From contig CAJINV010000004.1 of the NCBI GenBank assembly GCA_905178155.1, positions 9,205,159-9,269,158 of the forward strand: DNA of 64,000 bases, in the 5' to 3' direction. The DNA is from Amoebophrya sp. A120 (lineage: Eukaryota; Protista; Dinoflagellata). This document shows positions 103-60,900 of the stretch, one piece after another. Positions within the stretch are counted from its first letter, which is position 1; every line of letters starts with the position of its first letter. A program made the position numbers and the translations under genes. Under the pieces are notes generated by a model that saw nothing but the letters and a program-made list of their open reading frames with translations, was not told the DNA's origin and did no database searches.

Positions 103-3100
103 ATGAGTCCAAAAAAAAGAATCTTCATGGTGCACCAGTCTGCGCCACAGAGGACAGTGGAGACGATGGACGCGCAAGTAGCCTATCAAATGTAAAAATG
201 TCTGGGTCTGGAAGATTCTGAGACTTGTCATGCATGTTTTGTATTGGCCATGATGTCTGTGATGCATGCCCTAGCATCACAGATTTTTTGAGGGCTTCGC
301 GATGCCTATTCCGCATGACAAATGCCCTCTCCGCGTAGCAAAAATTGCGTTTCCTTTGCTGCTCATGCAATACAGATTTTTTTGGAGTCCAAATTCAGCA
401 TCACCTCAGGGTTCCAGGGTTCCAAATTCAGCATCACAAATTGCATTCTTCCAGACCCAGACATTTTTACATTTGATATAGCCGCGAAGATGACAACTTC
501 AACTCCATCCAGCTGCAGTCCACCCTCCAGCACCTGTAACAAAGGGTCCCCGTCACAAGCAAGTGACCTACAACACGTAGGATCGGCGGGACGGGGTCGT
601 GAAGTAGAGGTGGTTTCGGTTATTTCCTCCACTTCTTCTATGGATGTGTCAGGATCGAAATCAACAAAATCGAAAAATTTGTGATGCATAAAATCGATAC
701 CAGTTGGACCCACAGTTTTCAAGTGGCGCATGACAAACTTCGGGAGCTGCAAAATCCAGTCTGGTGTCGTGCTGTTTGGGCAAAGAAGACTGCTCCTGTC
801 ATGCTGCTCTGGCAACGCGTCTTCTTCCCCTAAACAGGCTTGCAATCGATCTCATTTGCCTTCTCCCCAACACAGGCCTTCCGTGCCCTACATTTTATGC
901 ATTACAAGTTTTTCGATTTCGTCGATTTCGATCCTGACACTCCCATATCTTCCTGCCAAGTACAACCAGCTCCGCAGACCACGGATCAGGAACCAGCAGA
1001 CCAGCAGCACGAGAAGTACTACCAAGATCAAGATGGAACAAATTTTTTCCAGAAGGCTAGTAGTACAACAACGCAGCAAGCCCAAGCCGTCGAGATGTTG
1101 GCAGTCCCCACTGGAGGTGAAAGTGCTGCCACTGCAGCGCGAGGAGAAGGAGGACCTGCTACTCGTGGAGATAAGGAAGATGGCGCGTGTGCAGTCCAAG
1201 TTGTCCGAGCAGGAGTTTCTTCGTCCAACTGTTCGGGCGAAGATTTGCAAGGGCATATCTTCATGCAGGAGGATACAGCACGTCCACATGACATGAACGA
1301 GGATTCCCTGGAGTTGCAACCACACAACAAAATCAAGGGCGCGAAGAACGCGAAGGACAGCAAGACATCCTCCGCGGCCCCAACTACATTTGGCTGTCCT
1401 AGTACAACATCAGCTCTATCTACTACAACTACTACTCGTTCCTCCGCGCTGCGCCCGTCCGCCGCGCGAGTCAGCTTCGTGAGGCAGCGCCTGCAGGAGA
1501 AGCACCAGGAGCGGCTGCGGCAGGCCAAGCTGGTGCCGACATTGCAGCGGTATGTCGCGGCGTGTCTTGCGATGGTGATGGCGTTTTCCTACGGGTGCTG
1601 GTCTTTCTCCAAAAGAACGCTGAACACCGCGGTTGCAGTAGTGAAAAACTTCTGGCGCGAACGAGCGGTCTACTTGGGCTACGTCTACAAGCTGGTCTTC
1701 AACAGCTTCTACTACGTGGAGGTGCTCATCCGGTCATCTTTCTCGTGGGGGAAAAGTGCAGTTTGCGCAGCTTGGGGTTTCATTTGCTCCTTCACAGCTG
1801 ACATCGTCTTTCATCTTCTTCATACAGTACCATCGGGGGCTAGTTCTTCGTGTACTTCTGGTCCTCTGCAAGAAGAGGCACAGGCACAAAAGCCGGGAGC
1901 CGCGGCGAAAAAGCCTTCTTCAAAGATGACTACCAAGCGAAAAATGAAGGGGAAAACGAAAATGATAAACATGGGCGAACAACAAGAAGATCCGTTTTCA
2001 CCACGACAGGCCGGCGGGACAGACACGGCATCAACATCTTCAAACCACGGGCACGATGAAAATCAAGATACCCCTTGTTGCGACGGGACTGTTGTTGTTG
2101 TAACTGTGGTGTGTCCACCACCTCCCGCGAACAACGGTCTTGCAGGCTTTTGGCTTCGACTGCAGCAGGCAGTGATATTTGCAACCACCGCTGGAACAAG
2201 TCAAATTCTTCTGCGAGTAAAAGGTGCAGCGGGGCAAGCGCTGGCTTTTCTGCGCCGAATGCAACTCGTTTACTGCCAACGCTGGAAAAGTAGAGCCAGC
2301 CGGCGGGGGCAGTGGTGGCAAGTGTTTTGCGTTTGCTTATCAAACGGAAAAATCCCCCCTCCCCATATCAAAACGGAATTTCTGATGCTGGATTTGTGTA
2401 CACAAATCAGGTTTGTATTGCAGAGAAGCACTGCGGCCAGATCCCCAGGCTAGGTAGGGGCGTATGGGTCTAGTTGTTCAGCATGGCAAGCGGCTCACTT
2501 TTAGGGCCAACAGCATGACAAATCGCCTCCATAGTGCGGCGGAAGCTTCTGCCCTTGTCTTCTTGCAAGACAAATGTGATTTGTGACCTCAAATCAGCAA
2601 GACAAATTTGCGGAAACATACCTTTTCGATATGGGGAGGGGGGATTTTTACTTTTGATATTGCTTGCGGCTTGTGGAGTTTCTTGCGCTCGTCACGTACC
2701 TCTGTTACAGCTGGGTATGCATTGCAAACATGTCTGGGTCTGGAAGAGTGCATATTTGTCATGCTTGTCTGGCATGACTCTTAAATCTGTCATGCACGTT
2801 ACCCAAGAGAGCCGTTTTGCTGTCATGCAAAAACGCAGTTTGTCATGCAGAATAGGCAACACCTAGAAGCTCAAAAGCTTGTCATGCTGAGCCAGCAGTT
2901 GTGACCTTCATGATACGCCGCCCAGCAACATCACAAGTTTCCAGACCCAGACACTTTTACAATCCATACTGGGACCACTTGTACGACAACTACACCGCGA
3001 CGACGTCCATTTTCTCGTCGTCCATGTGGTACAACAACTACGCCGGGGGTCCAAGGGACGAAGGGAGAAGTACAACCACTACGGTTCTTGAGCACAGAAG

Positions 3101-4589
3101 CAACATGCTGAGTAAAAATTTACATTTTCCCAGCACGTCTCCCTCTCGCTCTCCGAGCAGCTCCTGGAGCGCCACGACGACCTCCGCGAAAGAGATGAAA
3201 ACTAGCAGTAGCACTAGAGGACTCCTGTCTACTAGTACAAAAGGGAGCGAAGAAGCCGAAGGTTTTATTACCTCCCACGGGGGCAGGGGGACGATCACGA
3301 AGACGAACAGGAACAACTACAACCGGAAACAAGCGTCGTGGCTGCAAGTCCTTCCTCATACTGGTGCAGTGGAGAGGACGACGACTGTCGAGGAGGACTG
3401 CCTGCTCGGGGGTGAGCAGCGGAAGGAGCACGAGCAGGCGGTGGAGAACGAGAACAAACGCATCAAACGCAAGGAGCTACTAGTAACCGAAATCCACCAA
3501 GAGCAACACCATCATATTAGCCATCACCAGTACCGCAGCACCACCAAGAGGATTTTTCTGTTTGCGAACGCGGAGAAGATCGCACTCGTGCAGCAAGAAA
3601 GTGGAACCGACGACGACATGGTCGTTGTTGAGCAGGTGCAAGAAGGGCTAACCGACGACGACATGGTCGTTGAGCAGGAGATGCTGGCAGGCGGGCCGGA
3701 TGGTCGTGAAAAACAACTTACTATTTCGGAAGATGAAGATGACACAGCCGTCGCAGCTGCGGAAATGTTTTTGAACACGGCGAGAACAGTATTACAGTGA
3801 AAAATGCCCCCACCCCCAAAGTTGCAAAAAATTGTGATGCGAAGTTTCCGAATGAAAACTTTTTGCCATGCATGAAAGGAGAAGTATGAATGTTTCTGAT
3901 GCACAGTCTAGCTGTGTCTCGCATCGCTTGCATGAGAAGCGCCAGTCTTGCTGGGGTCTTTTGCAATACAAATTTTTGCTATTCACGATTGGAAGCCTGT
4001 GCTGCTGATAGATGCAAGAGGGCAAATGTTTCATTTGGAAAGGTTTGCAATACAAAATGCCACCAGGTGGCATTTTTCATTGTAATAAACAGCAAACTCA
4101 AATCCAGCTGCTGCGGGGGCGCCCGCCCTGGACGAGGTGCTAGGTACCACGCCTGCGTTAGCCGGAAGAACCACCACCACGACGTCTTCGGATGTTGCAG
4201 CCAACAAGGTGCTGGCCAGCAACATGGACAAGAAGGTGCTCGTCAGGGTCAGGCAGTTCGGCGGGAAAGAGGTGTCTGGAACTACTCGTGGTCCTGGGCG
4301 ACGTGCAACAAGATTCAACCGACCTTCTGCAGTAGCTAGTACATCGACCTCCGCGGTGGATGAAGAAGCCTCACGGCGGGCAATAACAATGAGCGCGTTT
4401 CTGCAACAGCAGACGGCAAAAAAGAAACGGGTCGGCGAAAACGAAGAGAAGACGTCGCTGCAGAAACGAACCAAGGAGCAACAAGGCCGCGAAAAACAAA
4501 AGCGAAATTTGAAGGTGCGGATCACTAAGATATGCAATCATGTCTGCTTCTGGGAGAATGCGCGTGTAGTTTGTCGTGGATTTACTTAA
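103..4589 (+). CDS. Hypothetical protein (~995 aa) split by 5 TA...TA elements; hydrophobic stretches
   Basis: ATG at 103. Removing each element plus one 5-bp repeat joins ORFs 322, 840, 2901 and 4137 in one frame (VA|AKM, TS|CQVQ, CVC|LRLV, SW|DHLY, ART|ANSN). The 3' end is uncertain: a possible GT donor lies at 4515. Confidence 0.75.
184..478. mobile_element. Introner, family B
   Basis: TIR TATCAAATGTAAAAATGTCTGGGTCTGGAAG; flanking repeat TAGCC. Confidence 0.9.
639..947. mobile_element. Introner, family C
   Basis: TATGG..GTGTCAGGATCGAAATC and its inverse; repeat TCTTC. Confidence 0.9.
2338..2659. mobile_element. Introner, family D
   Basis: TATCAAA..AAAAATCCCCCCTCCCCATATC and its inverse; repeat TTGCT. 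Confidence 0.9.
2716..2968. mobile_element. Introner, family B (second interior type)
   Basis: TGTCTGGGTCTGGAA TIR; repeat CTGGG. Confidence 0.9.
3790..4087. mobile_element. Introner, family F
   Basis: TATTACAGTGAAAAATGCC / GGCATTTTTCATTGTAATA; repeat AACAG. Confidence 0.9.
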
Positions 4590-4955
4590 CTAGGTATTTT
4601 AGATACATGCACTGGAATGCGCTCAAAGCATCGCAGTTCGTTTATTTGTGAAGGCGTCTCAATGCATACCTTGACCTCCCCCTCGCATGTTGGCTAGAAA
4701 ATATGCATACCTCGCATGGGATTGGGATGAAATAACTCGCTCTACTTTATTTCCTACCCAGACGTGCCGGGCAGCTTCTTGAATTTTGGTGCTCATGCAA
4801 CAGTAGAAAAACAAATGTTCATGTTTTTGTTTGGTCTGTGTTCGACTTCGAGTCGTGAGAGTCAGTTAGCACAAGAAGTACGACGCATAATTCTATATTC
4901 CAAACGACCCAGAGGACAACATGTTTATTGCACATGCATAATCGACCAAAAAAGG

Positions 4956-7900
4956 CTGGAGTTTTTGCGGACGAGCGCACGCGTCACAGCGCAGAAGAGG
5001 ACGTCGACCGGCGAGGGTACCGGCACATCAGCAAGAAATAAACGTGTTGAACACGAACAAAAGACGTCGACCCGCGAGGGAGCAAGAAATAAACGTGTTG
5101 AACACGAACAAAAACATCTTCAGAAGCAAAAGCAGAAAGTTCATTTCGTCGACGCCTCTGCTGCTGTCGATCACCTGAACGCGCTGGTCGGGGAGCTTCA
5201 AAAGAATAATAATGCGGACGTAATGAACGAAATGATCCAGAACCTTGCCACCCACGCGGGGGAAAATGACGGCGCATTGAAGGACTATCTGGACCACATA
5301 CCGCTGGACGAGCCAAGAGGTCAGGCTCCAGGTGGCGAGCAGTTGATGCATGAGGCCTGCTATGGATTGCAAAAGTATAATCTAGCTATAATTTGAATTT
5401 CACGAAATTATTTTTAGCTCTGCTCAGCATGACAAGAAATCAAGTGGAATTTGTCATTCTGCTTTACCTTCTTGGGAACGCGAACGACATTTGTATATAT
5501 GCATGATTGCGATTAGTACGAGTGTGATACTTTTGCACTGGATACCTGCGTACTGATGGCGTTGGACGAGCAGTTCCCGGATTTGCTGATATGCCTTGCA
5601 AATATGTTTGGGTCGGGAAAGAATGGGATTTGTGATGCAAGATTTCGATCGTGGGAGATGCCAAAACCTGTATTGCACGAGCAGCAAAAAGAGAACTCAG
5701 AGTTTTGCCACCCCTAGAGGGCGCCTCTCATACCGGATAGGCATGAGCATGAAGAAAGCAAGCCTTCGTGTTCGTGATGCAAGCTGTGTTGCTAGCACAT
5801 GCAGTATGTTGGCATGGCGAGTCATGTACAATTTGCATGAAGACACCCTCTCCCCCCCGATCTTCCAGAGAACCTGAACCGAGACATACTTGCAGTTGAT
5901 TGCTGACATCGTGGGACGACAAAGACACTCCTGACAACCTAAATGACGACACTGTTTCGGTCGAACAAGAACATCTAAACCACATCTTCTACACCGAATC
6001 GGTGCCGGAGGGCAGCCCGCCCGATTACTCCGGGGAGGAGGGTGCGAACGGGATTAGATTGGACCGTTTCCGGGATGACGTGGCAAAGTACCAGGAAGCC
6101 GCCTACGGCGCAGTGGATCACGATCCAAATGATAATTTGAAGTTCAATACGGATGTGCCGGACGGGAAGCAATATATGACTCTCCCAGAGGGAGGCTATG
6201 GCTCGCTCAGGTGTTACAATGATTTCAACAGACTGTTAGTACCGGGAATATGAAAGCGGAGTAGAGTTCGATTTGTAATGCAAAAGCCAAAGTCGCTTTG
6301 GCTTTCACTTTCAAAATTTGCATGAAATTTATTTATATTTTTCTATAATCCAATTCGGATTGGAATTATTCCAATCGCGATCTATCGCAGATGTAGCTAG
6401 TATCCTCATAGAACGACGATTTCCTTCGGACGGTCCAAAGTTCAGTAAAATTATCTAGCTAAATTTGCATATGCGAAAAATAGTTGGCCGTGGAGCAGAA
6501 GCTCAATCTGTACCATTTTGGTCGTCATGTCGTAGTCGCGCAAGACAAACGTGACGAGAGGACTGTTCTTTCATTGTAAACTACAGTTCTTAGATGAAGA
6601 AATTGCAACACTTGAGCAGGTGATAGAGGCATGAAGGAGTTTCTCATGGAGGCCCGAGCGAGTATACGGCACGACCCCGGCAATGAGAATGACCTTATCT
6701 TTCCTCCGGAAAATCGAAGAGACAACCAGATCGCTCCCTTTGAACTGAATGAAGACGCGCGAAGGGCCATGCTAGCGGCCTTGATCGAACAATACCCCAA
6801 AAGGTTTGACGGGGGATTTGCAAACGACTTGGATGGACAGACTTCGCCCTTGGAGCATATCAACGACCTCAGTCACTACGTGACGTCGACGAGTCCCAAC
6901 GGGATCGATATTTTATGGGAAAATCCCCCCTTCCCATACTCAAAGCGGAAATTTGTAGTTGCTGACTCTTCGTGTAGTACACAAGTCCATTTATATTGCA
7001 TAACGGGAAACAAGGAAGGGCGCTTTGTAGTTTTCTGTAGGCGGAGATTTCTGTCGTGTCTGTTTAGGCCGGAGAGAAGGCGTCTGTGATGCCAAGCAGA
7101 TGATCATAGGCAGTGCCTCCGACGTAAACAGGGTCGTTAGGATCATCTAGTAGCTCAGATGTAGTTGTTATCCTTATCCTCGCAGCAATACAAAATGATC
7201 CGTGTATAATGCAAAAAATCATGTTACACAAATCTCTGACTCTGATTGAATATGGGGGCGAGGGTAGTGGATTTTTCATCTTCATAATCGAGAAGCTTGA
7301 ACTAAAAGCCGACGTCACCGAAGACCAAGTCCAAGATCTCCTTCGAAGATTCGACGACACAGACGGCAAGTTCCACTGGAACGACGTGGACATGGACGAA
7401 TTTCGCAAGGATTTCTACCACGCCATGCCTATTCCAGAGAAAAGTTGTACGCCCATATCAGCAAGAGGATATATAGAAAAATGATAAAATTATTCGTACA
7501 ATTGGAATAGCGGGTGTTCTTTGATAGTTATATTTTTACGGCACAAAAAACTCCGTGAAGATGCTCGCATGGTATGGGTGTGCTTTTTCATCTTTTTCTC
7601 TTTGATAATGCCCGAGCAGTACCAGAGAGACCACGGGGAATTGTTGCCCTACTACATGCGCAGCCACGAGCAAGTGGACGAAATGGAATTCTCCTCCCAA
7701 TACCTCGCCCTGCCTGCAGAACGCGAAGGCGGAAAGGAGCTGCACGACTTCATCCTGGGCACCGTATCTGAGCAGCCAGTATGGCGCTCTCAAAGAACGT
7801 TTACATGGATCGCAGCTGGTGCGTAATTTTCTGATGCAAAAAGAACTGCGCGTACGAGCAGAAGAGGGGCGGCAGCTTGTGTGTCTTGTTTCACTACGAT

Positions 7901-38731: not shown

Positions 38732-40711
<1,980 letters not shown>

Positions 40712-47866: not shown

Positions 47867-50800
47867 ATGGCGCCCGCACCACCGCAGACCATTCACTACG
47901 ACAACAGCGCGGATCAAGAGGAAGATGGGTCTTATTGGATCGGGCCCGAGCGAAAGCCGGATGAATCCAAATCCGATGGACCGATTGAGTGGAAGGGACC
48001 AGCGGGACAAGCGTATTTTTGTTTTTGATATGATTGGAGTTGTGGATGTGGTTGTTTCGTTTGTTGCGTTGCGTTTATCTCAGGAGGTTCTTGCGTACGT
48101 GTGTCGTGTCGCACAATTACAGAAGGGTTCTTTTGATGTCCTGAGGAAAAATCGTAATTCGCCTGAATCTTCACAAACCACCCTCACAGTTCCAGTGTCC
48201 TTGCGAGCGGCAACAACCAGCAGCAGAATTCTAGCTCGGCCTCCTTCTCCCGCCTCACTTCTCCCGGCGTACCGCCCAGCAAGTCCGGACAAGGCGGCTA
48301 CTACGTTATGTACGACGAGCCCTCGGGGAACAAAACGGTGGCGCAGCGGTTTCTCACGACGCAGAGCCAGTGGTTGCAGAAGGTTCGGTACCGGCAGGAG
48401 CTCCGGAACCTGGAAGCGGAGCATGAGAGGATGCGGGAGTGCGTCTTCGAACCGAACAAGGGCAGGGGAAAAAATAGTGCTGCAGGAGGAGGAGCTGCAT
48501 CAGGAGGTGGTGGTCAGAAGTCCTCGAACAGCAAAGGAACTACATCAGCGAACAACAATTCATCATCTTCTGCAGCGCAACATTCTACGGGCAGAAACTC
48601 CACGTCCTCAAAAGACTTGCGGAAGCAAAGCAGAGACGACTTTCTGTACAAGATGCAGATGGCGCAATTGCAGGAGATGAAGAGCATCGAGCAGGCCACC
48701 GCGAGTGCGAGGAAACGAGAGGGATACGACGCGGAGCTCGCTGCACAGGTGCAACATGATCAAGGGGTCGCTGGGGGGAATAGCGGAAATCTGATCATGG
48801 AGGTAAAATACTTGTGAGGAATTACTTCGTATAAAAGTTCAATTCCAATCTTGAAGTTGAACGTGTTAGTTAGGGAACTGCAGCACTCTCACTCTTCGTA
48901 GTTACAATGCAGATTGAAGCAAGCTGTGAGTCTGCGTGGTTCGATGCGCGAAAAAAACTAAAACCCTGCTCCGACTTTCAACAGACCAGCATTGCGTCCG
49001 GCAATTCCTACATCGAAGCGCGCAAGGCGGAAGCGGTGGCTGCAAGATTGGAACAGGAGAAGAAGGAGATGGCCGAGTGCACGTTCCGCCCCAACCTCCG
49101 GCTCAGTCAGCAGAGCTACCGCTGCTACCGGCCGTTCGCAGACAGCACGGGAGTAGAACGGGCAAGCTCTTCGTCCTCCAGTAGGTTCATGCAGAGACGG
49201 AACAACGATCTTAGTTTCAGACCCCGGAGCAGGATAGGAGGGGAACAAATGAGTTACAATGGCACTGCGGTGACGTTTGATCCCAACCGACCTGGTCACG
49301 AGAGGTTTGTTTCAACAACTTCTTCGCAGCAGGACGGGGGTCGGGGTGCTAATCCGGCGGCGCGCACGATTGACTTCGACTTGCAGAAAATTGCGAGAGA
49401 AGAAGGGTTTTACAATTTGAACAACCTGCTAGACGAAGAAGACCTGGCGCTCGCGTCCATGCAACTCTATCACCCGGATAGCACGACGATGGAAAATTTG
49501 AATTACGGCGGAGGTGGTTTGCAGAAGACAGCAATGGGGGCGGACGTTGCAGCCTACGGAGGTGCGAGAAGCCGAGGACGAATGCGCGATATTGGAACAA
49601 ATGGCGACGGGTTTATTGTTGGTGACCAGGAAGAACTGTATGCAGCAGGGGAGGAGAACTATCAGCTGCAAAACCACACCGCCACCTCGAACAGCATCAG
49701 GTCCTACCGCAATGCATCTCCACCGGAGAAGTTTTCTTTTCGCCCAAAAGTGAACGAGCTCCCGGAGGGTTTTCACGCGGCGAAAGTGTACACGGAGACC
49801 AACGTTTTCAAACGCCTGGCGGGAATCAACGAGTCGCCGCCGCCGGGAGCGGAAGATGAATTCTTTACGCCGCCACAGGTACTCTTTGAGTTTGGTGATG
49901 TAGTTCTTCAACTTCTTCGTTGTTTTGCATAGTAACCAAATTGATGTTACTCTTGGTGTTGGTCGATTTGCATGACAGAGTGAGATTCTATCTCTAAAAA
50001 AAACTTTCTATACAGGCCTTCCTGAACCGTCGCGCGCGGGAGCAACAGGAGGAGGAGTCCCGAGAGGAAAGGTTCGTCAGCGAACGAGAGAGGGCCGAAA
50101 CGTACCGACAGTTCCTGCGTCGACAGAACGAAAAACAGTATGAAAAGGAGGACCGTATGGAGGAGCTGGAAAAGAAATACTTCGGCCAGGAGCGGTTTCA
50201 GCCGAGTATAAATCCGAATTCGCGGAAGATCGCCTTGAACAACACAAAACGGAACTCTTACAATCCCCAGGTCGCCGCGGGGACGACCGGACCCAGTAGC
50301 AGCAGCAACAGCAACAGTTTTAACGGTGGCCCTCGTGGGATAAACAGTTCTTCCTTCCTGAACAACCTCGACAATAGCGACGTGCAAAAAACTTGCTACG
50401 GCGACAACAGTAACCTGGACGGGACGAAAATGTCGCTCGGTCGGTCTCTACAATTCAACGCCGTGCAAAAACGACTGGCAAGCGAACAGGGCGGTTTATT
50501 AGGTGGTCTTCCAGGCGGAGGACATGAAAATGTAAACACTTCTACTTCCAACCGCACGCTTCTTGAACGGGAAGAAAGACGGATGTTCGGAAAGGATAAC
50601 AGCCAAAACGTGTTCGCCAGTGTGTTGGAGGAGGAGGATGAGAGGAGGTTGAACCAGCGAAATAAAAACGGGATGTTGAATGCGGCAGGAGGATCTTCTT
50701 CCAACTCCCGCTCGAATTCCGCCTCCCGCACCTGGCACGACGAGCAACCGTGTCTGCGCGACCAGTACGTTTTGAAACAGATGCTATGCGTTGCAAAAGT

Positions 50801-53579
50801 ATCGTACTCGTACTAATCGCAATAATGCATGACAAATCTAGTTTCTAAACCTGAATCTGCATGAATAACAAGACCCACGCGTGGGGACAGGGTCCCCACG
50901 CTGGGGCCTTGTGCCCGCCCCTAGTGGCGCTAGTGGGGGAAGGGTGTTCGCCATCGGGGCGGACAGCGTCCGCCCCTCGCCTCACACCAGGCGCGCGCAT
51001 AGTGACTTAGTGCGCGAAACGCTAGTGGGGGAGGGGTGTTCGCCATCGGGGCGGACAGCGTCCGCCCCTCGCCTCACACCAGGCGCGCGCATAGTGACTT
51101 AGTGCGCGAAACGCTAGTGGGGCAAGGGTGTTCGCCATCGGGGCGGACAGCGTCCGCCCCTCGCCTCACACCAGGCGCGCGCATAGTGACTTAGTGCGCG
51201 AAACGCTAGTGGGGGAAGGGCCCTCACCTGTCGCGGCCACCTGTCGCGCCCACCTGTGATGGCCACCTGTCGCGGTCACCTGTCGCGGTCACCTGTCGCG
51301 GTCACCTGTCGCGGTCACCTGTCGAGGTCACCTGTCGAGGTCACCTGTCGAGGTCACCTGTCGCGGTCACCTGTCAAGGTCACCTGTCGCCGGGGGTATG
51401 CGTTACCAGAACCCGGAAGTCAAGCAATGTAAATATTAATTGCACTTTGCTTCTTGGCAAAATTTGTCATGTGAGTCATACTAGTACGATACTTTTGCAA
51501 TGCATAGATGCAGGACAAGAACAAAATACCGCCCACCGTGGACCACGCCTTTCACCCGACCATCAACGCGAAGTCGAGCAAGATCGCGAATAGAAAATCG
51601 TTGCACGAGTTGTCGTAGGAACTGTAAAAGTAACGTACTCATATAAAGTGCATTACAAATTTTGGCAAGAAGAAAAGTGGAATTTATGAATGCTGTTTTA
51701 CCTTAGGAGGGAGATTTGTCATGCATATTTGCAATTAGTACGAATGCGGTACTTTTACAGTTCATATGTCTGTGGGGGATCTGGAGCGGAAACGCGAAAA
51801 GGTGAAACAGTTGAAGGAGCTATCCTGTGCAAAAGTATCGTACTCGTATTGCAATCATGCATTACAAATTTCTTTCTCAAGTCAAATCCGCATTACAAAT
51901 TTTATTTCTCATGCTGAGAAAATTTGTAATGCATTTATACGAGTACGATACTTTTGCAGTTCATAGGAGCAGCGGGACAGCAAATATCAAACGTAAATAT
52001 GTCCTGGTCTGGAAGGATCCGAACTTGTGATGTGTGTTTCGGATCCTACAAAGATCTGTGATGCATAGCGTGCAAAAGGTGCCCACTCCTGGCCATGCTG
52101 AGAGGGCATTTCTCATGCAGAATACGCATCACCAAGGAGCTGCAGAACCTGTGATGCTAGGCCCTGCATTCCAGACGTCGGGGAGCTTGGAACAACTGCA
52201 TGACCACAAATCTCGGAATCTCCCAGACCCAAACATATTTGCATCTGATAGCAAAGAATTCGAGACGATCATCCAGACGAAGGTGGACACAGAAGCGAAA
52301 TTAAAAAAAGCGAAGCAGTACGACGCGGTGGAGCCCCGGACGCAACCGTACCGGAGCTACTACATCAACCAACTGCGGGAGAAGCATATGAAATGCAAAA
52401 GCATCGTACTAGTATAAATCGCATGACAAATCCCCTCAGCACGAAAAGTGGAATTTGTAATGCGGATTTAGGTTAAGAAGGAGATTTGTAATGCATGACT
52501 ACGATTACTACGAGTACGATACTTTTGCACAGGATAAAGCAGCAGAAAGTAGACGAAAAAAGGGAAAAGGACAAGCAGCAAAGGGAGGAAAAGGAACTGA
52601 AAGAGTGTATCCTGAGTAAAAATGACCCCACACCAGAGTCAAGATGGGAAATCCGCTAGACAAATTAGCCACCCCTGGTTGTTTCGCATGACAAGTTTAT
52701 CCTCGTAGCGTAGTCCTGTTTAGCTACTTCCGAAGCATTACAGATGTAGCGCGTCATGCTGATTCTAGCATCAGAAATTCCAAAACAGGATTAGATAGAA
52801 AATGGCTCTCTTGGGGCTTCGCATGAGAAACTTTTTTGGCATGCAGATTTGCATGACAACTCTGGGGTGGGGACATTTTTACTCAGGATAGAGTGCCGGT
52901 TCCAGCCAAAACTTGTCGCGGAAAACTACTTCAAGAAGTTGGTCAACAGCGGCGCGCACTACAACAGTAGTTCTAACTTGGGAGCAGGAGGTCCAGGTGG
53001 TGGTGGTAATTTGGGTCAACAGCAGCAACAGCCGTCGCGGAGTTTGTTTCTAAAACCACCCGCGATGCCCCCGAACGGTTCTGCAGCTGGTGCTGCCACG
53101 ATGCTGCGGTCGTCAAAAGGCTCTTCTGTCACGAACAACATCGGAACGACAGACGCTGGCTCGTCTGCGGCGGGGGAGGTGATGCAGGAGGAGCATAACC
53201 GCGACTCAAGAGAAACTACTGCACCGTTCGTTATGGGAGGTGGAGCACAAAATAGCCATGCGGAGAGTGGAGGGGCGGCGAATGTTGGTACTGGTATGTC
53301 TTTACTGCTGTGCAAGTGCAGATTTTTGCGCTTTTTGAAAATGCAAGGAGAATCATGCATGGTCTGTGCATGATAAAGACATGAAAATTCTTCAACTTCA
53401 AATCAAGTTGTACGATACGAGATGAAAACAATTTACAGGGACTAGCAGCACCGCAAATAATCGCAGAAACGGTCCTCCCCCCATCGAAGGCGTCATGGGC
53501 TAGGCAAGACACTCGGATGGACGAGCTGGTACTAGTAAGGAGAAAAATGCACAACGATGAAGAAATTTGGTCTAGATAG
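47867..53579 (+). CDS. Hypothetical coiled-coil protein with repeated ECxFxP motifs; 4 GT-AG introns and 6 element introns
   Basis: In-frame joins via introns 48013-48189, 48803-48912, 49879-50015 and six elements. Motifs ECVFEPN, ECTFRPNL, FSFRPKVN, FQPSIN, FHPTIN and ECRFQPKL. The last exon is uncertain. Confidence 0.7.
48013..48189 (+). other. Canonical GT-AG intron
   Basis: GTATTT...TCACAG; in frame. Confidence 0.7.
48803..48912 (+). other. Canonical GT-AG intron
   Basis: GTAAAA...ATGCAG; in frame. Confidence 0.75.
49879..50015 (+). other. Canonical GT-AG intron
   Basis: GTACTC...ATACAG; in frame. Confidence 0.8.
50928..51220. repeat. 92-bp tandem repeat, about 3.2 copies, hairpin-rich
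   Basis: Units start at 50928, 51020, 51112 and 51204; each full unit contains GGGGCGGAC-AGC-GTCCGCCCC. Confidence 0.95.
51225..51390. repeat. 13-bp tandem repeat CACCTGTCGCGGT, about 13 copies
   Basis: Read directly from the sequence. Confidence 0.95.
51616..51766. mobile_element. Introner, family A
   Basis: Starts TAGG; repeat TGTCG/TGTCT. Confidence 0.85.
51821..51965. mobile_element. Introner, family A
   Basis: Repeat GGAGC. Confidence 0.9.
51985..52250. mobile_element. Introner, family B
   Basis: Repeat GCAAA. Confidence 0.88.
52387..52536. mobile_element. Introner, family A
   Basis: Repeat AAGCA. Confidence 0.9.
52608..52890. mobile_element. Introner, family F
   Basis: TATCCTGAGTAAAAATGACCCCACACCAGAGT and its inverse; repeat GAGTG. 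Confidence 0.9.
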
Positions 53580-54905
53580 AAGGCATCGATGTCGCAAAAA
53601 TGAAAAGTTGAAAATCTTTTTGAAATAGCACAGATTCGTGGAGGAGCGGCATACAACGCTTGCCGCTGACAAGTCTAACCACACTGAACAAATAAAGAGA
53701 TTATCGCGAAGCTAGAAGAAGAAGTCAACAAGAATCTGGTAAACCACACTGAACTTTTTCGCATTTTTTGTCGCCATAGAAAATTAGACGCAGAATTAGT
53801 CACGGAAAAAATGGCAGCACGCCCAGCGCTGCAGTGACTGACGATTGGAAGTAAAGAGATTGCGCAAAAACTTCTGGCCCATTTTGGGGGCGTTGAGAAC
53901 AAAATCAAAATCGTAAAAAATTTGGACGAGCTGAATCTGTTGTACCTACAATGGGCTTGGTATTGTATTTCTGATAAATCCACTTGATAGTGCTGTGTCT
54001 TGGCAAGGCTGTGGCCACGCAAGTGGGAGCTTGTCCGCACTAGTAATGTATTTCCTGTTGTTCTCCAAGTCGTTGTCGTGATACCCATGCAGCTACAGAT
54101 ACAGTAACAGTGCTTGAGGTTTGTTTCGTACGTTCCTTCGCTAAAGGAGTACAAAACAATCGGTCGCTTCACACAGCAACATCGGTGTCTACTTCCGTCG
54201 TAGCTTTGGCGCTTTTTCCTCGCGTTTTCAGTGTACTTAAAAGCGCTGGACGCATCATCTGCATCAACCTGCTATGCCTACGTCGGTCTTGCGATAATAA
54301 AGATATCGTGCTCGTATCGGTATCGCGCAGTTTTCATCAGATCTACATCGTCTTGTTTCGGTACTACTCCGTACTTACGTGATGTCCTGCGGGTACAGTG
54401 TCGTGTCATCTGCTCTGTTTACAAAGGAAGCGTCCACCTCTTCGTGCAATGTCAATGTATCGTGTCTCCAACGAGAAGTCGTACAGCTAGTACCACGCTA
54501 CCTTATTTGTCGTTCTCTCTCTTCGTAATCGTCTTGATGTAGAGGCGCGCAGCAGCAGATTATGATTACTTTTGCTCAACCACAGCAAATCCCCTTATTG
54601 AGAAATTCTACTCGCCCCAAATGCTAGTCTTATGTCATCAATCCCTTTCCCTATGTAGTCTTTCGTCTTTTGAATTTGAATTGACCCAAATTTTAAGTTT
54701 TAGAAGTACCCCATAAAAACTTTTTATCCCAGGAACACAATCAGGATGCTATGCAGAGCTTCAGTACGCAGACGCGGCGCTACAATAACGATCCTGAACC
54801 GCGCGGTGGAGCACCCGGCACACCCGTCCTGTTGAAGCGTCTCATAGCTCTTGCAGACATTTTGTAACCCGGAAAAACATCAATTTCGTATTAAAAAAAA
54901 ATAAA

Positions 54906-57900
54906 ATGCAAGCCCTCCTCGCGAAAATGTCTTCATCTGCCCCACCGGGACCGGGAGGGGACCAACCTGGCAGAAGAAGTAGCTCCACCCCGACCAATGC
55001 GTCGAAGAACAAGAAAGCCCTTGCGAAAGCGAAAGTCGAGGAGGAGTTTTTTAACAAGAAGTTTTGGTGCCCCCCAGACCTCGTCAAGGGCAGCATGGGA
55101 TTCACCTTCAAGGATAGCACGATCACCAAGATCGAACCCGGGAAGTGGGCCGACAGCGCTGGGCTTAGAGTTGGGGACGAAATCGTGTTAATCGAGACCA
55201 TACCAAGTGCAAAAATGTCTGGGTCTGGAAGAATGCAACTTGTGATGCTACATTTGGATTCCAAAAAAATCTGTATTGCGTGAGTAGCAAAGGGAATGCA
55301 ATTTTTGCTACGCTGAGAAGGCATTTGTCATGCGCAATAGGCATCAAGAATCCCTCAAAAAACCTGTGATGCTAGGGCATGCATCACAGACATCATGCCT
55401 CATGAAAACCCCGCATGACAAGTCTCAGAATCTTCCAGACCAAGACATTTTTGCATTTGATAGACCACCTTCGTCGGAAAAGATCCGATCGTGGAAACGG
55501 TCACCCGCCCGTTGAGACATATGGGAGCGTCAGGTTTGAAATCGTCAAAGTTGAATATAATTTGTAATGCATAAAATGCATGACCCGAGGCACGTGCGTT
55601 GCCGAGCAGGCAAGTGAGGCCGATTGTAAGCCTGTTTGGGGTTACAGCTCGAGCTGCTAAAGTAGCATGAGAAAATCGCTCTTCTTTGCCTAAACAGCAT
55701 GACAAACAGGACTTGGGGACCACCGACATTTGTCTTGCGCCACTTGGAAACTGGGTTCCAACTGGCATCCATTTTATGCATGACAAATTATTTCAACTTT
55801 GTCGATTTCAACTCTGACACATCCATAAGACACAGCAAAATGCTCTCGAAGTCAAGTACGGGGAGTAAGTCGTCTCTGGCGATAACAGATGGTAGTCCTA
55901 GTGCTAGTAGTCCTGGGGCGGCTGTCGTCCTTCCCGATCCGATGCGCAGTAGCCGGTCGGGCATATCTTCAAACATCCCGACAGGCCGCGGGTCGACTAC
56001 TTCTTCCGACGAACAGCTGTCTTCCGGAGTGGAAACCGAGGAGGTGAAGTTCACGCAGTTTGAGTGTTTGTCCCAAACGGAGAAAATCATCCGCTTAAAG
56101 AACAAAAAAGGCGTCGGATTTGTCATTACCCGGAAAATCCACGAAACCGACTTAGAAGAAGCCGCGATCAACCTGCAGGCGGCGTTTCGCGGAAGGAAAG
56201 AAAGGTCCACTTCGGTCGCGGTGGCGAAGAAGCAACAGCTGTTCGCCAACCCCTTTCGGATCGAGCACCCACCTTTATCGGTTCCGTTCGCGCTGCACCG
56301 AAGCGTGGAGCGGAATTTGCACAAGCAGCCGCCGTTGCGATCGGTGTCCGAAACGCCGAGACAGCGGATGATGGAGTTCCGAACCACGCTGAAGAAAGTG
56401 GATGAGTTCGACAGATATAATTCGTCGGCGTCGGGTCGTGGAAATGGTAATGACTTCAGATACGGAGAAGCAGGAACACTATCAGGAGGTCCGTTCTTTT
56501 CGTCTCTTCGTGGTCCTCCTCCTCCGCAAAGAGTTGTTGTTCCTGAAGGGGAAGCAGGTGGCATGTACATGTTGGACAGCGGAGAGGATGAAGACGAGGA
56601 TGCCAGCCGGCTTACCACCCCTCCCCCTCGAGGATCGACACCAAGAGGACAGACGCCAAGAAAGTCTTTGTCTTCCTCCAAAAACTCAACAGCAGACAAT
56701 AAACCGGGGGCTGTTTCCTCAACTCTAACCTTGAACCTTCCCGCCACCAGCTATCGAACCAGCGCTGCTGTGCGGTCCAGAGGACCTGGTAGCAGCTCGC
56801 AACAGCAAGAGCCCCCGATTTTGGAAGACAAGATGCAGAACGCGTTTCTCAAATCGGACTTCTTCGGCCGCGGGCGGCCTTCCTCGATTATCCCGGGAAG
56901 CGGTGCCATTTACGACCGAGAAGATTCCGTCCGGCAAGTGGCCGCGGCGACCACCCGACACAGCCTGCTGATCGACAAAATCGGGTTCACCGCGCAGGAC
57001 AGCAGCGGAAGGACTGTGCCCGTGGTTCCGCTTGGTGGATCAGTACCGCCCGTGCAGAAGTGCAGAATTTTGCCCCTTCCGCCCAAAAGCAAGACTTCGC
57101 CGAACTTGTTTGGTGACCCGAAGAAATTTGGGCAAGCTAATAGAGGAAATAATGCAGGGGTAATAGTCGGCTTGTCAGGCGACGCCGAGGACGAAGTTGA
57201 TGTTGATATCGCAGCGCAGACTCCGGTCAATGGCGATCTTCAAACTGGCAAGATAAAAACTTTTTTCAACAATGTGAAGGAAAATTTCGCTTCGAAATTG
57301 CAGGATGTGAAGGAAAAGGTGCAGGAAAAAAGGCAAATTTCAAGAGAAAAATCCCAGGAAAGGAGGGAAATTCTGATGGAAAAGGTGGAGAAAACAAAAG
57401 AGATTGTGAAGGGGAACGTCGATCTGGTAAAGGAGAAGCTGAAAATTCCGCGCAAAGAACGGGGAAGGAAAAATAAGCATCCGAAAGAAGGACCAGTGAC
57501 AGTTGAATCGGAGGGCGAGGACAGTCCGAGCGAGCCGTCAGAGGAAGACCTGGAGGCGGTCTTACGGCAGACGGAAACGGGAGGAGATTCAGTACAACTT
57601 CCTGGTGCTGCTTCTGCAAGCACGACTGCCGCTTCACCACAGTCAGGTTCCACAGCTGCAGGTCAGAACATCAAATTACCCTCGTCGTCATCTTCGACGA
57701 CAGTAACGAGGACGACACCATCCGGCTACAACAACAATAACCCAGCTTCCTTACGACCCACTGGGTCGTCCTCGTTGCAACCGGTCGGCGGAAGGACTAC
57801 AACTGAGGCTGCAGTAGATCCGCAACAAATTCGGGGCGGCGACACGACGAGGACTACAGGTACTAGTCCCTCCATGGCCAGTACGAAAATCTCAGAGAAT

Positions 57901-60900
57901 AACCGGGGAACGAATTCCCGACGTCAGAACGCCTCTGCAGATGTTCTCTCAGTCCCTGCCCCCAACAACGACCCCCTCGGAGGCCTGGATAGCACCTACG
58001 CGAACGTGCAGGCTTTTGAAACTTCCCTGCACGCCCTGGAGGGCTTGGAAGAGCAGAAAGCCACCGCGCAGGCACTGCTGGGGTCTAAGATGATTCACGC
58101 GTTGACGGTGGCGCACCAGGGGGAAGATCTGTTTAACTTCAACAGCCTGGCAACCCGGACGCAAAAGAGCAAAAGGGAAGACGATAGCAGTGGGAGCGAG
58201 GATGAGTTTACAGAGCCAAAGAATAAGACGAAGACCGCTAAGATGGACGATTTTTTGGGCAAGGAAGGAACCGTGTTCATCGACAAACAGACAAGCCGAA
58301 TCTCCCTGAACGCGCCCCACCCGGCGCAACATCAAAATCTTCAGAGCAACAAGTCTGTGAAGCACACTTCCCGGATTATCGACACCCAGTCCCCTTCCCA
58401 AGCCAGAATCACGGGGTTGAGCTCGCGGGACACCACCGCGGCGCAAGTGCTCCCGAGTTACACGGAAAGTCTACTTCCGGCGGATATGGTGGCGGAGTGG
58501 GAGGAGAACTTCGACTACGGGTATCCGCGGATCCAAGTCCCGCAGGCGGAATCGGATGAGTGGACTTTATCCTCCATGCTGCAGATCGTGAAGCACTGCC
58601 AAACCAGGCCGGAAATGCCGTTACACCCCTTGCTCGTCGTGCGGATGCTGGAAGACATCACGGAGAGCATGGACAAAAAGTACCCCACGCCCGTGAACTA
58701 TTTACAGATCCCGCGGAACGTCGTGGATGAGGAAGTTGTTGGGGGGGATGGTATCATGAGCAGTACTAGTTACAACAATAACGATATCACCGTTGACTAC
58801 GGGGCAAAAGATAACATTAACACGCTCCCTTCGTCCACCGCGAAAGCTTTCCATCACACCCCGTCTGCCGGTACAAATGCTTCTGGTTCGTCCGGCTCCA
58901 TTTTGAACAGCATCCGGCAGAAAGCGCAACAGTCGTCGGACCAGAAACTCGCGGAGAAGGTTCGGAAAATCCGGAAGTCCCGGCTGCCCTCGGTTCTAGA
59001 TTCCGACGCCATCTCCCGTCCGGGGCGCTTAATCGTCGTCGGGGACACGCACGGGCAGTTGACGGACGTGCTGTGGATTTTTTACAAAAACGGGCTACCC
59101 TCGCCCTCCAACGCTTATTTATTCAACGGCGACATCGCGGACCGCGGATTTTACGCGACCGAGATCTTTATGCTGGTGTACGGGTTCATGCTGTTATACC
59201 CCGAAGCGGTCCACATTAACCGCGGGAACCACGAGGATTTGAACATGAATTTAGACCCGAGGTGCGGCGGCTTTTACAAGGAGGTGATCCAGAAATACGG
59301 GCCGAATTTGGGCGAAATCGTGTTCAACACCTTTCTCAAAACCTACGCGATGCTTCCTTTAGCCACCGTGTTGGAGAAGAAGATTTTTGTCGTCCACGGC
59401 GGGTTGTCGAGAGTCCGTGAAGGGAATTTCGAACTACTACGATCGGCGATCGACAACCGGTCGATCTGCATGCCGGATTCCGTCCTGCAATCCGCGGACA
59501 TGGCCTTCGTCGACGCGCTGTGGGCGGACCCGAGCGACAACCCGGGGATTTCCAAATCTTCCCGGGGGCCTTCGATGATTTACTTCGGGCCGGATGTGAC
59601 GCGGCAGTTTTTGGAGGAAAACGGGTTTAAGCAAGTGATCCGGTCGCACCAACCGCCGAAGACGAAGGACGGCGTGAACTGGCACCATATGCATTGCAAA
59701 TATGTCTGGGTCTGGAAACTTGTAATGCTAAAAGTGTAAGTGAATGATGGACGCACTGCAATACGCAGCTATGCATGACAGACTTTTTGGCTGCCATCTC
59801 TTACGTATTCCGTTTCCGCATGGCAAACTGCGTTTTTGCATGACAGGTAAAAGGGCTTTTTCGTGGCTAAGTATGCAGCACAGATTCTCGATCTCGAGTC
59901 ATGCCAGACAAGCATGACAAATCTTGCATCCTTCCAGACCCAGACATATTTGCACTTGATACACCACGACGGCAAGCTAATCACGGTGTTTTCGGCGTCC
60001 AACTATTGCGGGTGGTACGGGAATCAGGGCGCCGTGCTGATCTTCACGCCGTATCAACAATCGAGAGCAAGCGCGCTCGTCGATGCCTTTCACGCACAGT
60101 ATCAACCCCAAGCATTGTCCAGGAGCATCACGCCGATTAGTACTATCGCGAGGCCGCCAGCACCTCCTGGGCTCGTACAAGGTAGTCCACCTGGTGCTGG
60201 TACCACGACGACCAAGGTCGTTCAGCTGGGCGGCCCAAGCAAGTTAACACCGAAAATCGGAGGTCTCCAATTCCAGCCCAGTTTCGAAAATATCGGGAAG
60301 CCGTCTGTGGGGAGCAATAATTCCAAAACCTCCCAACGGTCGGCGGATAATTTTGCGCATGACCCGTATCGGAACAGCAGTGGTAGCGACATGACCGAGA
60401 ACGACAATTGGGCCATGCCGGAGATGGAGGTTGTCCGTCATTTCTCGCCCACCTTTGAAGAGCTCCGAACCGTGGACATCTGCACAAACGACCTCCGCGG
60501 CATGCTGGATCTGCCGTCGTTTTTCCAGCACAAGATGAGACAAAACTTCGCGACGACGCAACTGGAAGTCTCTGCCCAACGCAAATTTCAGTCCCAGGGG
60601 TTGGCGGAGCGGTTGGATAGGCTGGTGTACGAAGTAAAATCGCGAATCGCTCGGTTGATTGTGGAGGAAAAACATTTCCTGTACAAAACCTTCGCGGAGT
60701 TCGAGCACGCAGCGTACCTGTCGAGAAATACGACGCAAATAACTGCGGGAACTTCATCCTCTTCTGGAGTTTTCGACTCAAATTTAGTCCAGGAATACAA
60801 GGTCAGCGAGGTAGACAAGGACGATATTACTTTAACTGCGGGGGGAGAAGAACCAGAACCAATCAGTGACCGTTTCCCAACGAAAAACCCAAGCGAAAGA

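What the first reader, a model, noticed from the sequence alone, without database searches (positions are those of the whole stretch)
184..59961. Window-wide system of non-GT-AG, TA...TA hairpin introns with 5-bp direct repeats that excise seamlessly
Seen: 46 complete elements from about 10 TIR families interrupt 7 genes. 44 have the layout [5-bp repeat]-TA-TIR...TIR-TA-[5-bp repeat]; one of these ends TT. The repeat sequence is arbitrary and all three codon phases occur. Deleting the element plus one repeat copy restores the frame at all 44 junctions, including cathepsin C (WSQSTHSIICVGWG) and PPP phosphatase (WHHDGKLITVFSASNYC) motifs. Most have no GT-AG ends, yet normal GT-AG introns occur in the same genes. 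Known: repeated non-canonical introns with inverted and direct repeats were, as I recall, reported in Amoebophrya with the removal mechanism unresolved. Inference: these are MITE-like transposons with a 5-bp target duplication, removed by a second, structure-guided splicing route or by DNA excision.
Basis: partly seen in the sequence, partly recalled or inferred. Interest (0 to 1): 0.92.

Follow-up and report, generated by a model that had tools for sequence, protein, structure and literature searches.

The report
Amoebophrya hairpin introns: fixed cut position
These are the already described transposon-like introns of the marine parasite Amoebophrya A120: 46 hairpin-shaped inserts, missing to the base from RNA-type contigs where checked although they lack the usual splice signals, and two informative sites suggest they are likely cut at one fixed position relative to the hairpin, which would make their unknown removal mechanism testable.

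Summary
Observation confirmed. There are 46 TA…TA inverted-repeat elements, each flanked by a 5-bp direct repeat (39 exact, 7 with one mismatch); shuffles give none. Removing element plus one repeat restores long reading frames at 45 of 46. RNA-type contigs skip exactly element+5 nt at 3 junctions directly and 3 by length, while a DNA-type contig keeps an element whole.

The window is Amoebophrya sp. A120. The elements are the introner elements of Farhat 2021, and '5-bp TSD, TA/TA termini' is listed for one A120 family by Gozashti 2025, so the class is already known.

Added here:
(1) Both orientations of a family are removed.
(2) Insertion sites show no selection for GT-AG.
(3) Two mismatched repeats place the cut between repeat bases 4 and 5, giving N-UAU…AUA-NNNN. 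The 2021 paper left this border unknown.

Likeliest mechanism (about 0.5): a relaxed, U1-less spliceosome guided by the hairpin. Rival (0.33): a separate nuclease/ligase route. DNA excision is unlikely. The scan had no notes on this genome but noted look-alike hairpin introns in other protists.

The parts
184..478 (.). Element, family A, exact 5-bp repeat
639..947 (.). Element, family B, exact repeat
2338..2659 (.). Element, pair with 16319, exact repeat
2716..2968 (.). Element, family A, exact repeat
3790..4087 (.). Element, singleton, exact repeat
4531..4940 (.). Decayed TA…TA element, not among the 46; frame needs a cut of 411/414/417 nt, not length+5 (415)
5361..5544 (.). Element, family C, exact repeat, weak stem
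5590..5901 (.). Element, family A, ends TT, exact repeat
6197..6625 (.). Element, singleton, exact repeat
6909..7286 (.). Element, singleton, exact repeat, weak stem
7430..7607 (.). Element, singleton, exact repeat
7780..9505 (.). Probable long element starting TAT, holding a 46-bp tandem array, cut by the N gap; not among the 46
9981..10190 (.). Family A element cut by the N gap; not among the 46
11498..11758 (.). Element, family A, exact repeat
11795..12101 (.). Element, family B, exact repeat
12529..12768 (.). Element, pair with 13302, exact repeat
12892..13174 (.). Element, family A, exact repeat
13302..13536 (.). Element, pair with 12529, exact repeat
13581..13952 (.). Element, family B, repeat mismatch at base 4 (register test open: T predicted, not M)
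14051..14194 (.). Element, family C, exact repeat
14852..15895 (.). 1044-bp element, exact repeat; element+5 meets a stop two codons on; may be the 5' part of one GT-AG intron 14851-16125
16319..16640 (.). Element, repeat mismatch at base 5; reads GT-AG at register 4 (Q predicted, not E)
16912..17289 (.). Element, family B, repeat mismatch at base 1
25024..25183 (.). Element, family C; junction in published protein
25849..26110 (.). Element, family A; junction in published protein and by length in RNA-type contig
26171..26326 (.). Element, family C, repeat mismatch at base 5; published protein and an ortholog have the right-copy residue E, so the cut lies at or before base 4
26458..26602 (.). 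Element, family C; junction in published protein and by length in RNA-type contig
27450..27712 (.). Element, family A; junction in published protein
27769..27977 (.). Element, pair with 28585; junction in published protein
28117..28285 (+). Ordinary GT-AG intron in the same gene
28585..28801 (.). Element, pair with 27769; junction in published protein
28851..29003 (.). Element, family C; junction in published protein
29112..30428 (.). Family A element carrying a nested 1047-bp element; junction in published protein
29324..30370 (.). Nested TTA…TAA element with its own exact 5-bp repeat; sister family-A copies show the empty site
31103..31252 (.). Element, family C; junction in published protein
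31313..31604 (.). Element, family B, repeat mismatch at base 4; RNA-type contig piece starts at 31609 and the published protein has V, so the cut lies at or after base 4
32812..32968 (.). Element, family C, near the papain catalytic His; spanned whole by a DNA-type contig; junction in published protein
33090..33240 (.). Element, family C; junction in published protein
33658..33866 (.). Element, singleton; junction in published protein
34107..35265 (.). Long decayed element between two copies of a 36-bp exonic repeat; the published model cuts 34106-35271, one base before its TAT; not among the 46
36392..36544 (.). Element, family C; RNA-type contig skips 158 nt = 153+5
37073..37232 (.). Element, family C, repeat mismatch at base 2; RNA-type contig skips 165 nt and keeps the left base
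43327..43643 (.). Element, family B; RNA-type contig skips 322 nt = 317+5
50785..51506 (.). Family C element with about 570 bp of internal tandem-repeat insertion
51616..51766 (.). Element, family C, starts TAG, repeat mismatch at base 5 (synonymous)
51821..51965 (.). Element, family C; the only one with no in-frame stop if retained
51985..52250 (.). Element, family A, after a 14-nt exon
52387..52536 (.). Element, family C, exact repeat
52608..52890 (.). Element, singleton, exact repeat
55201..55462 (.). Element, family A, exact repeat
55520..55827 (.). Element, family B, exact repeat
59688..59961 (.). Element, family A, just after the Metallophos match in the PPP phosphatase gene
64..18136 (+). 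Host gene or genes of no Pfam family above cut-off in the five exons scanned (19 elements; possibly one gene across the N gap)
24766..37582 (+). Papain-family (cathepsin C-like) gene, CAD7947485.1, 16 elements
41713..45400 (+). Dual-specificity phosphatase gene, 1 element
47802..53373 (+). Gene of no Pfam family in the two exons scanned, 6 elements and about 3 candidate GT-AG introns
54798..63672 (+). PPP phosphatase / EF-hand gene, 3 elements

Best explanation
These are Amoebophrya A120 introner elements: likely non-autonomous DNA transposons that insert in either orientation with a 5-bp target duplication, are missing to the base from RNA-type contigs where checked, and are likely cut at a fixed register by a relaxed, hairpin-guided spliceosome. 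SHOWN: TAT…ATA ends and 5-bp repeats; both orientations in the same genes; exact removal of element+5 nt in RNA-type contigs; retention in a DNA-type contig; no need for GT or AG. INFERRED from two mismatched repeats: the cut falls between repeat bases 4 and 5, so the intron is N-UAU(G/C)…(G/C)AUA-NNNN, one base 5' and four bases 3' of the stem. INFERRED mechanism: the inverted repeat pairs from about base 8 inward and holds the two ends together. The outer three A-U pairs and the poorly paired bases 4-7 would fray and expose a 5' end with U+2 and A+3, like the host's GUA donors. The 3' cut would be set by distance from the stem, not by AG. Because both ends carry the same motif, either orientation works. 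INFERRED spread: an integrase-like DDE transposase supplied in trans. Step odds: known class 0.97; RNA-level removal 0.9; fixed register 4 about 0.75; spliceosome as catalyst about 0.5; integrase-like mobiliser about 0.45.
For: Identity: P0001 = CAD7947485.1 of A120, 100% identical to a window exon. End consensus T 91/92, A 92/92, T 88/92, then A at 11-13 in 64, 69, 86 of 92 equals the published A120 motif 'TAT, seven variable, three A' (PMC7789003 section 11). RNA: X3 records skip 158, 165 and 322 nt, and a 181-nt gap equals two predicted exons; X1 record 5 spans 32812-32968 with no gap. Register: of offsets 0-5 only offset 4 gives 0 mismatches to P0001 over residues 1-1743 and 14 junctions; the X3 piece start at 31609 agrees; ortholog P0003 also has E at the 26171 junction, so that site was probably GT-AG at register 4 before the +1 G changed; the published cut at 34106 also starts one base before TAT. 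Orientation: families split 8/7, 4/8 and 4/3; both orientations in a second assembly. No GT-AG selection: G at base 5 in 41 of 143 (background 31%), AG|G in 5 of 143. Target duplication: nested element with an empty site in sisters; 248 of 498 TA…TA pairs in the second assembly have a 5-bp repeat, against 5 with 4 bp and 3 with 6 bp. Stem: pairing 44-46 of 46 at bases 1-3, 19-29 at 4-7, 35-44 at 8-20. A kilobase nested insert does not block removal in the published model. Spliceosome nearly complete, U1 not detected (PMC7789003 section 10).
Against: The register rests on two junctions in one gene and assumes one register for all. The base-5 evidence comes from a published gene model and an ortholog, not from reads I saw; that same model mis-joins at 36392. 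The model and run X3 may derive from the same data. X3 is only guessed to be RNA. A match of register 4 to a GUA-like donor has roughly a 1-in-6 prior by chance, and several of my seven GT-AG donors were picked among alternatives. No branch point or acceptor signal was found, and the last two bases are arbitrary (15 dinucleotides), which a spliceosome is not known to tolerate (my knowledge). There is no sense-strand excess of G-U pairs and no stronger conservation of 5' than 3' ends. Intron base +5 is C more often than G in the second assembly (88 vs 46 of 143). The T depletion at repeat base 5 seen in the window (3 of 46) did not replicate (29 of 143). No transposase was found.
Confidence: 0.5

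Rival explanations
1. Same elements and register, but removed by a spliceosome-independent route: a structure-specific endonuclease cuts 1 nt 5' and 4 nt 3' of the stem and a ligase joins the exons, in the manner proposed for euglenid nonconventional introns.
For: Orientation does not matter. Terminal dinucleotides are arbitrary. Hairpins are strong (39 of 43 with z below -2). No branch point or pyrimidine-AG was recognised. Euglenid precedent has unequal 5' and 3' spacers and unknown machinery (PMC12501133 abstract and introduction; PMC11282704 passages).
Against: No such enzyme is known in Amoebophrya. The inferred register puts U at +2 and A at +3 as in GUA donors. One element reads GT-AG at that register and another probably did. 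A chordate lineage handles transposon-derived non-canonical introns with an adapted spliceosome (PMC13326754 abstract).
Confidence: 0.33
2. The junctions are reverse-transcriptase template-switch artefacts across strong hairpins between direct repeats; true mRNAs keep the elements or use other sites.
For: A hairpin flanked by direct repeats is the classic substrate for such skipping (my knowledge). All RNA evidence here is assembled contigs of unrecorded library type.
Against: Retention would put an in-frame stop at 45 of 46 sites in genes with conserved orthologs and motifs. The repeats are only 5 nt. Weak-stem elements also restore frame. Only 15 of 46 have any frame-keeping GT…AG nearby.
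Confidence: 0.07
3. The elements are excised from DNA at some life stage, like ciliate internal eliminated sequences with pointer repeats, and the cleaned DNA is transcribed.
For: TA ends and removal of one repeat copy resemble programmed DNA elimination (my knowledge). 1561 joints were not shown, so rare excised DNA is not excluded, and the life stage of X1 is unknown.
Against: All 8 listed X1 pieces are ungapped; seven run into element ends or span an element, one of them spanning 32812-32968 whole. No germline/soma split is known in this parasite (my knowledge). The elements persist and nest.
Confidence: 0.03
4. The register is not fixed: the machinery slides within the repeat and any placement gives the same mRNA.
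For: The 2021 paper describes splice sites as variable relative to the hairpin. At 39 of 46 sites placement cannot be seen. The decayed elements 4531-4940 and 34107-35265 do not follow length+5.
Against: All three informative sites tested (26171, 31313, 37073) fit offset 4. The published 'variability' is what aligners would give on ambiguous repeats (inference).
Confidence: 0.07

Closest known systems
Introner elements of Amoebophrya sp. A120 (Farhat et al. 2021, PMC7789003)
   Same: Same organism; inverted repeats starting TAT + 7 + AAA; 3-5-nt direct repeats, with a 5-bp example in the Fig. S19 legend; repeated families; RNA-supported non-canonical removal; mixed with GT-AG introns.
   Different: That paper gives repeats of variable length and an unknown, variable border. 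Here the repeat is 5 bp in all 46, both orientations are shown, and a fixed cut register is inferred.
A120 introner family 38 (Gozashti et al. 2025, PMC12130899, supplementary file 8 row 580)
   Same: Annotated '5-bp TSD, TA/TA Termini', a TIR DNA element labelled Ginger, with ORFs homologous to Copia/Gypsy elements.
   Different: One family of 5 copies at about 810 bp. Other A120 families there carry automated TSD calls of 2-6 bp or none (39 of 58 rows seen, plus 2). The window's elements are short and noncoding, and I did not match them to family numbers.
IS3EU DNA transposons (as described in PMC12730594)
   Same: TAY…RTA termini; family B here ends TATGG…CCATA like the fungal TAYGG…CCRTA.
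   Different: IS3EU makes 6-bp duplications; these make 5. No transposase was found.
Euglenid nonconventional introns (PMC12501133; PMC11282704)
   Same: No GT-AG; end-pairing stem; short 5' and longer 3' spacer outside the stem; coexist with canonical introns.
   Different: The Euglena code is 5'-N3CDG…CH'GN5-6|R; here N-TAT…ATA-N4 is inferred. Circular products are reported for Euglena and untested here.
MITE-derived non-canonical introns of Fritillaria borealis (PMC13326754; PMC11282704)
   Same: Transposon-derived introns escaping GT-AG, handled by an adapted U2 spliceosome.
   Different: Those have preferred ends (AG-AC, AG-AT) and duplicated U2AF; here the end dinucleotides are arbitrary and U1 was not detected.

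Membership tests
Amoebophrya A120 introner elements | Host is Amoebophrya A120 | tested here: met
   A window exon is 100% identical to CAD7947485.1
Amoebophrya A120 introner elements | Inverted repeat at both intron ends starting TAT, seven variable bases, then AAA | tested here: met
   T 91/92, A 92/92, T 88/92; A at 11-13 in 64, 69, 86 of 92 (11 of the 46 were found with a TA anchor)
Amoebophrya A120 introner elements | 3-5-nt direct repeat over the exon/intron border | tested here: met
   5 bp in 46 of 46; 39 exact
Amoebophrya A120 introner elements | Repeated in families | tested here: met
   Families of 15, 11 and 7 plus three pairs; median identity 64-76%, best pair 94%
Amoebophrya A120 introner elements | Removed from transcripts without GT-AG | tested here: met
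   3 junctions directly and 3 by length in RNA-type contigs; 14 in the published protein; the rest by frame only
MITE / non-autonomous TIR DNA transposon | Terminal inverted repeats | tested here: met
MITE / non-autonomous TIR DNA transposon | Direct repeat created on insertion (empty site with one copy) | tested here: inconclusive
   Shown for the nested TTA…TAA element. For TA…TA elements only protein-level continuity in an ortholog; no sister-strain DNA was available
MITE / non-autonomous TIR DNA transposon | Cognate autonomous transposase in the genome | not testable with these tools
   No genome is held; 0 of 52 ORFs from the second assembly had a transposase or integrase Pfam hit
IS3EU | TAY…RTA termini | tested here: met
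   against PMC12730594
IS3EU | 6-bp target duplication | tested here: not met
   0 of 46; 3 of 498 in the second assembly
IS3EU | IS3-like DDE transposase | not testable with these tools
   No autonomous copy was found
Ginger | Integrase-like transposase and Ginger termini | tested here: inconclusive
   No coding copy here; the 2025 paper itself says family 38 lacks Ginger termini and TSDs
U2 spliceosomal intron | GT (or GC) … AG ends | tested here: not met
   GT-AG possible at 1 of 46; AG|G at 5 of 143
U2 spliceosomal intron | Branch point and lariat intermediate | not testable with these tools
   No consensus recognised by eye; needs lariat sequencing
Euglenid nonconventional intron | N3CDG…CH'GN5-6|R signature | tested here: not met
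   The consensus here is TAT…ATA
Euglenid nonconventional intron | End-pairing stem | tested here: met
   Predicted folds, median z -6.6 for 43 of 46 folded
Euglenid nonconventional intron | Full-length circular product, no lariat | not testable with these tools
   Needs RNA chemistry
Ciliate-type internal eliminated sequence | Removed from DNA | tested here: not met
   DNA-type contigs keep the elements; rare or stage-specific excision is not excluded

The most novel reading that the evidence does not exclude
Amoebophrya A120 runs a second, spliceosome-independent splicing system with a strict geometric code: cut one base before and four bases after a TAT…ATA stem, whatever the flanking bases or the element's orientation. 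This makes any insertion of a 5-bp-duplicating, TA-ended transposon harmless and let it seed tens of thousands of introns.
Probability: 0.25. Interest if true: 0.85.

Novelty: already known. Interest (0 to 1): 0.4.

Why it matters
How Amoebophrya removes its non-canonical introns (65% of RNA-supported A120 introns, Table S4) has been open since 2021, partly because the direct repeats hide the true border. If the register inferred here holds, the '64 possible end motifs' collapse into one rule (N-UAU…AUA-NNNN). Lariat, circle and reporter experiments could then be designed to the base, and gene models corrected. It would also show how a transposon can become a perfectly neutral intron at any site and in either orientation. 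The phenomenon itself is not new.

Tried and rejected
No RNA holder was on record in the run search; X3 is a guess, supported only by its gene-wise depth and exact skips. Raw 2026 RNA runs X9 and X10 laid only 8-9 reads and are uninformative. Three word-index protein searches found nothing (length limits probably excluded the long models), so the mismatch sites 13581, 16319 and 16912 stay untested. P0002 (archaeal) is a chance repeat hit. No Rfam family in the window. No family-C end in viral contigs. No transposase among 52 ORFs, including 3 inside long TA…TA pairs; ORF-like stretches in four long window inserts look low-complexity and were not scanned. T depletion at repeat bases 4-5 (3 of 46 each, p=0.02 uncorrected) was first read as a splice-site signal and then dropped: base 5 did not replicate, and base 4 follows codon periodicity. 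The G-U versus A-C test was null. A stop-codon test on 15 oriented mismatched repeats was uninformative. All nine predominant A120 motifs in Table S4 begin NT, which fits register 4, but I do not count it, since BLAT slides ambiguous junctions toward GT/AG-like letters (recalled). IS3EU membership was rejected on repeat length. The second assembly shares no exon with the window, so it gave no empty sites.

Full report
OBSERVATION. The window is 64 kb with one 474-N gap. A scan that required only an exact 5-bp direct repeat and an end-to-end inverted repeat gave 53 hits, 35 of them TA…TA. Ten triplet shuffles gave 1-4 hits each, none TA…TA. A TA-anchored pass and inspection added 11. The 46 elements are 144-1317 bp and cover 21% of the window. 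The repeat is exact in 39 and has one mismatch in 7; no element has an exact repeat of 3, 4 or 6-9 bp. They form three families (15, 11, 7), three pairs and seven singletons, with median identity 64-76% within families. Both ends share T-A-T-(G/C), variable bases, then A-rich positions 11-14.

FRAME. Removing element+5 nt gives stop-free frames in all host genes, all on the + strand. The local test is open at 46 of 46 against 10 and 17 of 46 for the other two frames. One pass is hollow (14852: stop two codons later; 14851-16125 reads as one in-frame GT-AG intron), so 45 of 46 is the fair figure. Retention gives an in-frame stop at 45 of 46. Pfam places papain, dual-specificity phosphatase and PPP/EF-hand domains in three host genes (25 exons scanned). 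'Cathepsin C' is a recalled motif reading; Pfam says only Peptidase_C1. Only 1 of 46 can be GT-AG at a seamless placement. An ordinary GT-AG intron, 28117-28285, lies in the papain gene.

RNA AND DNA. Four of 11 listed runs were laid on 24500-44400. X3, guessed to be RNA, has contigs that skip 158 nt (153+5), 165 nt (160+5) and 322 nt (317+5) with no other letters. A 181-nt gap in another record equals the two small exons predicted between three elements. Its depth falls to near zero over the glutamate dehydrogenase gene, as RNA would. X1 behaves as DNA: even depth of about 45 on unique sequence, pieces running into element ends, and one contig spanning 32812-32968 ungapped. Most rows were not shown (1561 joints, 20678 pieces), so rare joined DNA is not excluded. 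X9 and X10 laid 8-9 reads and say nothing.

IDENTITY. An exon search returned 3 proteins. P0001 is CAD7947485.1 of Amoebophrya sp. A120 and follows my model across 14 element junctions, though it mis-joins at 36392, where the X3 contig shows the 158-nt skip. Farhat 2021 (PMC7789003; I read the abstract, sections 10, 11, 12, 16, 25, passages, supplement part 2 and table rows; figures not held) describes A120 introner elements. They have inverted repeats starting TAT, seven variable bases and three As, 3-5-nt direct repeats, 29,850 copies and RNA support; U1 was not detected, and the border position 'remains unknown'. Gozashti 2025 (PMC12130899; passages, and 41 of 58 A120 rows of supplementary file 8; files 13-14 not searched) lists family 38 as '5-bp TSD, TA/TA Termini', with integrase-related ORFs. 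The finding is therefore a rediscovery.

WHAT IS ADDED. (1) Orientation: families split 8/7, 4/8 (with the gap-cut copy) and 4/3 relative to the gene strand, and both orientations occur among junctions in P0001. (2) Register: mismatched repeats reveal which copy stays. At 37073 (base 2) and 31313 (base 4) the RNA-type contigs keep the left base. At 26171 (base 5) P0001 has the right-copy residue E, as does an ortholog, P0003. Of offsets 0-5 only offset 4 gives no mismatch over 1743 residues. The intron would be N-UAU…AUA-NNNN. Site 26171 would then have been GT-AG when new and have lost its +1 G. The published cut at the decayed element 34107 also begins one base before TAT. The model was built from transcript alignments, but I did not see reads at 26171, and four further mismatch sites are untested. 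Of 498 TA…TA pairs, 248 have a 5-bp repeat, 5 have 4 bp, 3 have 6 bp and 212 have none (probably cross-pairings and mismatched repeats). Of 292 non-overlapping elements, 143 could be oriented and 149 were dropped; the method scored 39 right, 1 wrong and 6 undecided on the window. G at base 5 is 41 of 143 (background 31%), AG at bases 3-4 is 15, and AG|G is 5: no selection for canonical sites. (4) A nested element with its own 5-bp repeat has an empty site in sister copies.

MECHANISM. Predicted folds are strong (43 of 46 folded, median z -6.6, 39 below -2, 12 shuffles each). Pairing is near complete at bases 1-3, poor at 4-7 and high at 8-20 (same pattern). I favour a relaxed spliceosome, for four reasons. 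Register 4 leaves U+2 and A+3 as in the host's GTA donors (seven candidates, several chosen among alternatives). The frayed tip would expose them. The spliceosome is nearly complete but lacks detectable U1. An adapted spliceosome does such work in Fritillaria (PMC13326754, abstract only). Against it: arbitrary last bases, no branch point recognised, no G-U excess on the sense strand (63 vs 58; 123 vs 122), no 5'/3' asymmetry, and a window T-depletion signal that failed to replicate. The two-part inverted repeat is equally explained by transposase needs (my knowledge). A nuclease-ligase route like that proposed for euglenid introns (PMC12501133, abstract and introduction; PMC11282704, passages) remains a strong rival. 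Template switching and DNA excision are unlikely. The ends resemble IS3EU (TAYGG…CCRTA, 6-bp duplication; PMC12730594 passages) but fail on repeat length; no transposase was found.

NOVELTY. The class, 5-bp repeats and TA ends are in print. I found no paper fixing the cut register or reporting orientation independence in six searches (listings only) and in passages of PMC9860276 and PMC12005148. Roy 2023 and Henriet 2019 were seen only as citations; subscription papers, figures and bioRxiv supplements were not visible and could hold it. The scan had no notes on this genome and no look-alike by sequence; four unchecked notes describe similar introns in other protists. Verdict: real, already known, with a modest but testable refinement. 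Interest 0.4.

Noticed in passing
window, interiors of most elements: An 8-base motif, T[CG]T[ACG]ATGC or its reverse complement, recurs across unrelated families at 11.6 per kb against 0.04 per kb in exons, often 41-44 nt in from the 5' end. It is a candidate shared transposase or RNA-protein site.
   Followed up: partly
window 29324-30370: The nested GC-rich element has TTA…TAA ends, like the A25-type motif in Farhat 2021, with a 5-bp repeat and an internal hairpin at about 29712-29955.
   Followed up: partly
window 14851-16125: Reads as one GT-AG intron whose donor is the element's start at register 4 and whose acceptor is a family-C-like end plus G. An element may have landed at an older intron's donor.
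   Followed up: partly
window 34069-35302: A long decayed element lies between two copies of a 36-bp exonic repeat; the published protein keeps both copies plus one Asp.
   Followed up: partly
window 36359-36544: The published model CAD7947485.1 mis-joins in the ACC run (184-nt cut, frameshift, early end). The RNA-type contig supports a 158-nt cut and a protein about 300 residues longer.
   Followed up: yes
window 8036-9075 and 50860-51420: Tandem arrays (46-bp; 92-bp and 13-bp units) sit inside elements; the first runs toward the N gap.
   Followed up: no
L001-L147: Insertion phase at register 4 is 71/36/36 (p=2e-4) but 18/9/19 in the window; a symmetric G/C-rich target preference plus codon bias could explain it.
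   Followed up: partly
L017:367-1470: A 1104-bp TA…TA element with a near-perfect inverted repeat and a 233-codon low-complexity ORF with no Pfam hit.
   Followed up: partly
window 19471-23829 and 38732-47102: Two intronless ORFs, a glutamate dehydrogenase and a NIP7 gene carry no elements; the last two have one candidate GT-AG intron each. All called genes lie on the + strand.
   Followed up: no
element bases 4-7, all families: Hypervariable even between close copies and between the two ends of one copy, while bases 1-3 and 8-20 stay paired.
   Followed up: partly
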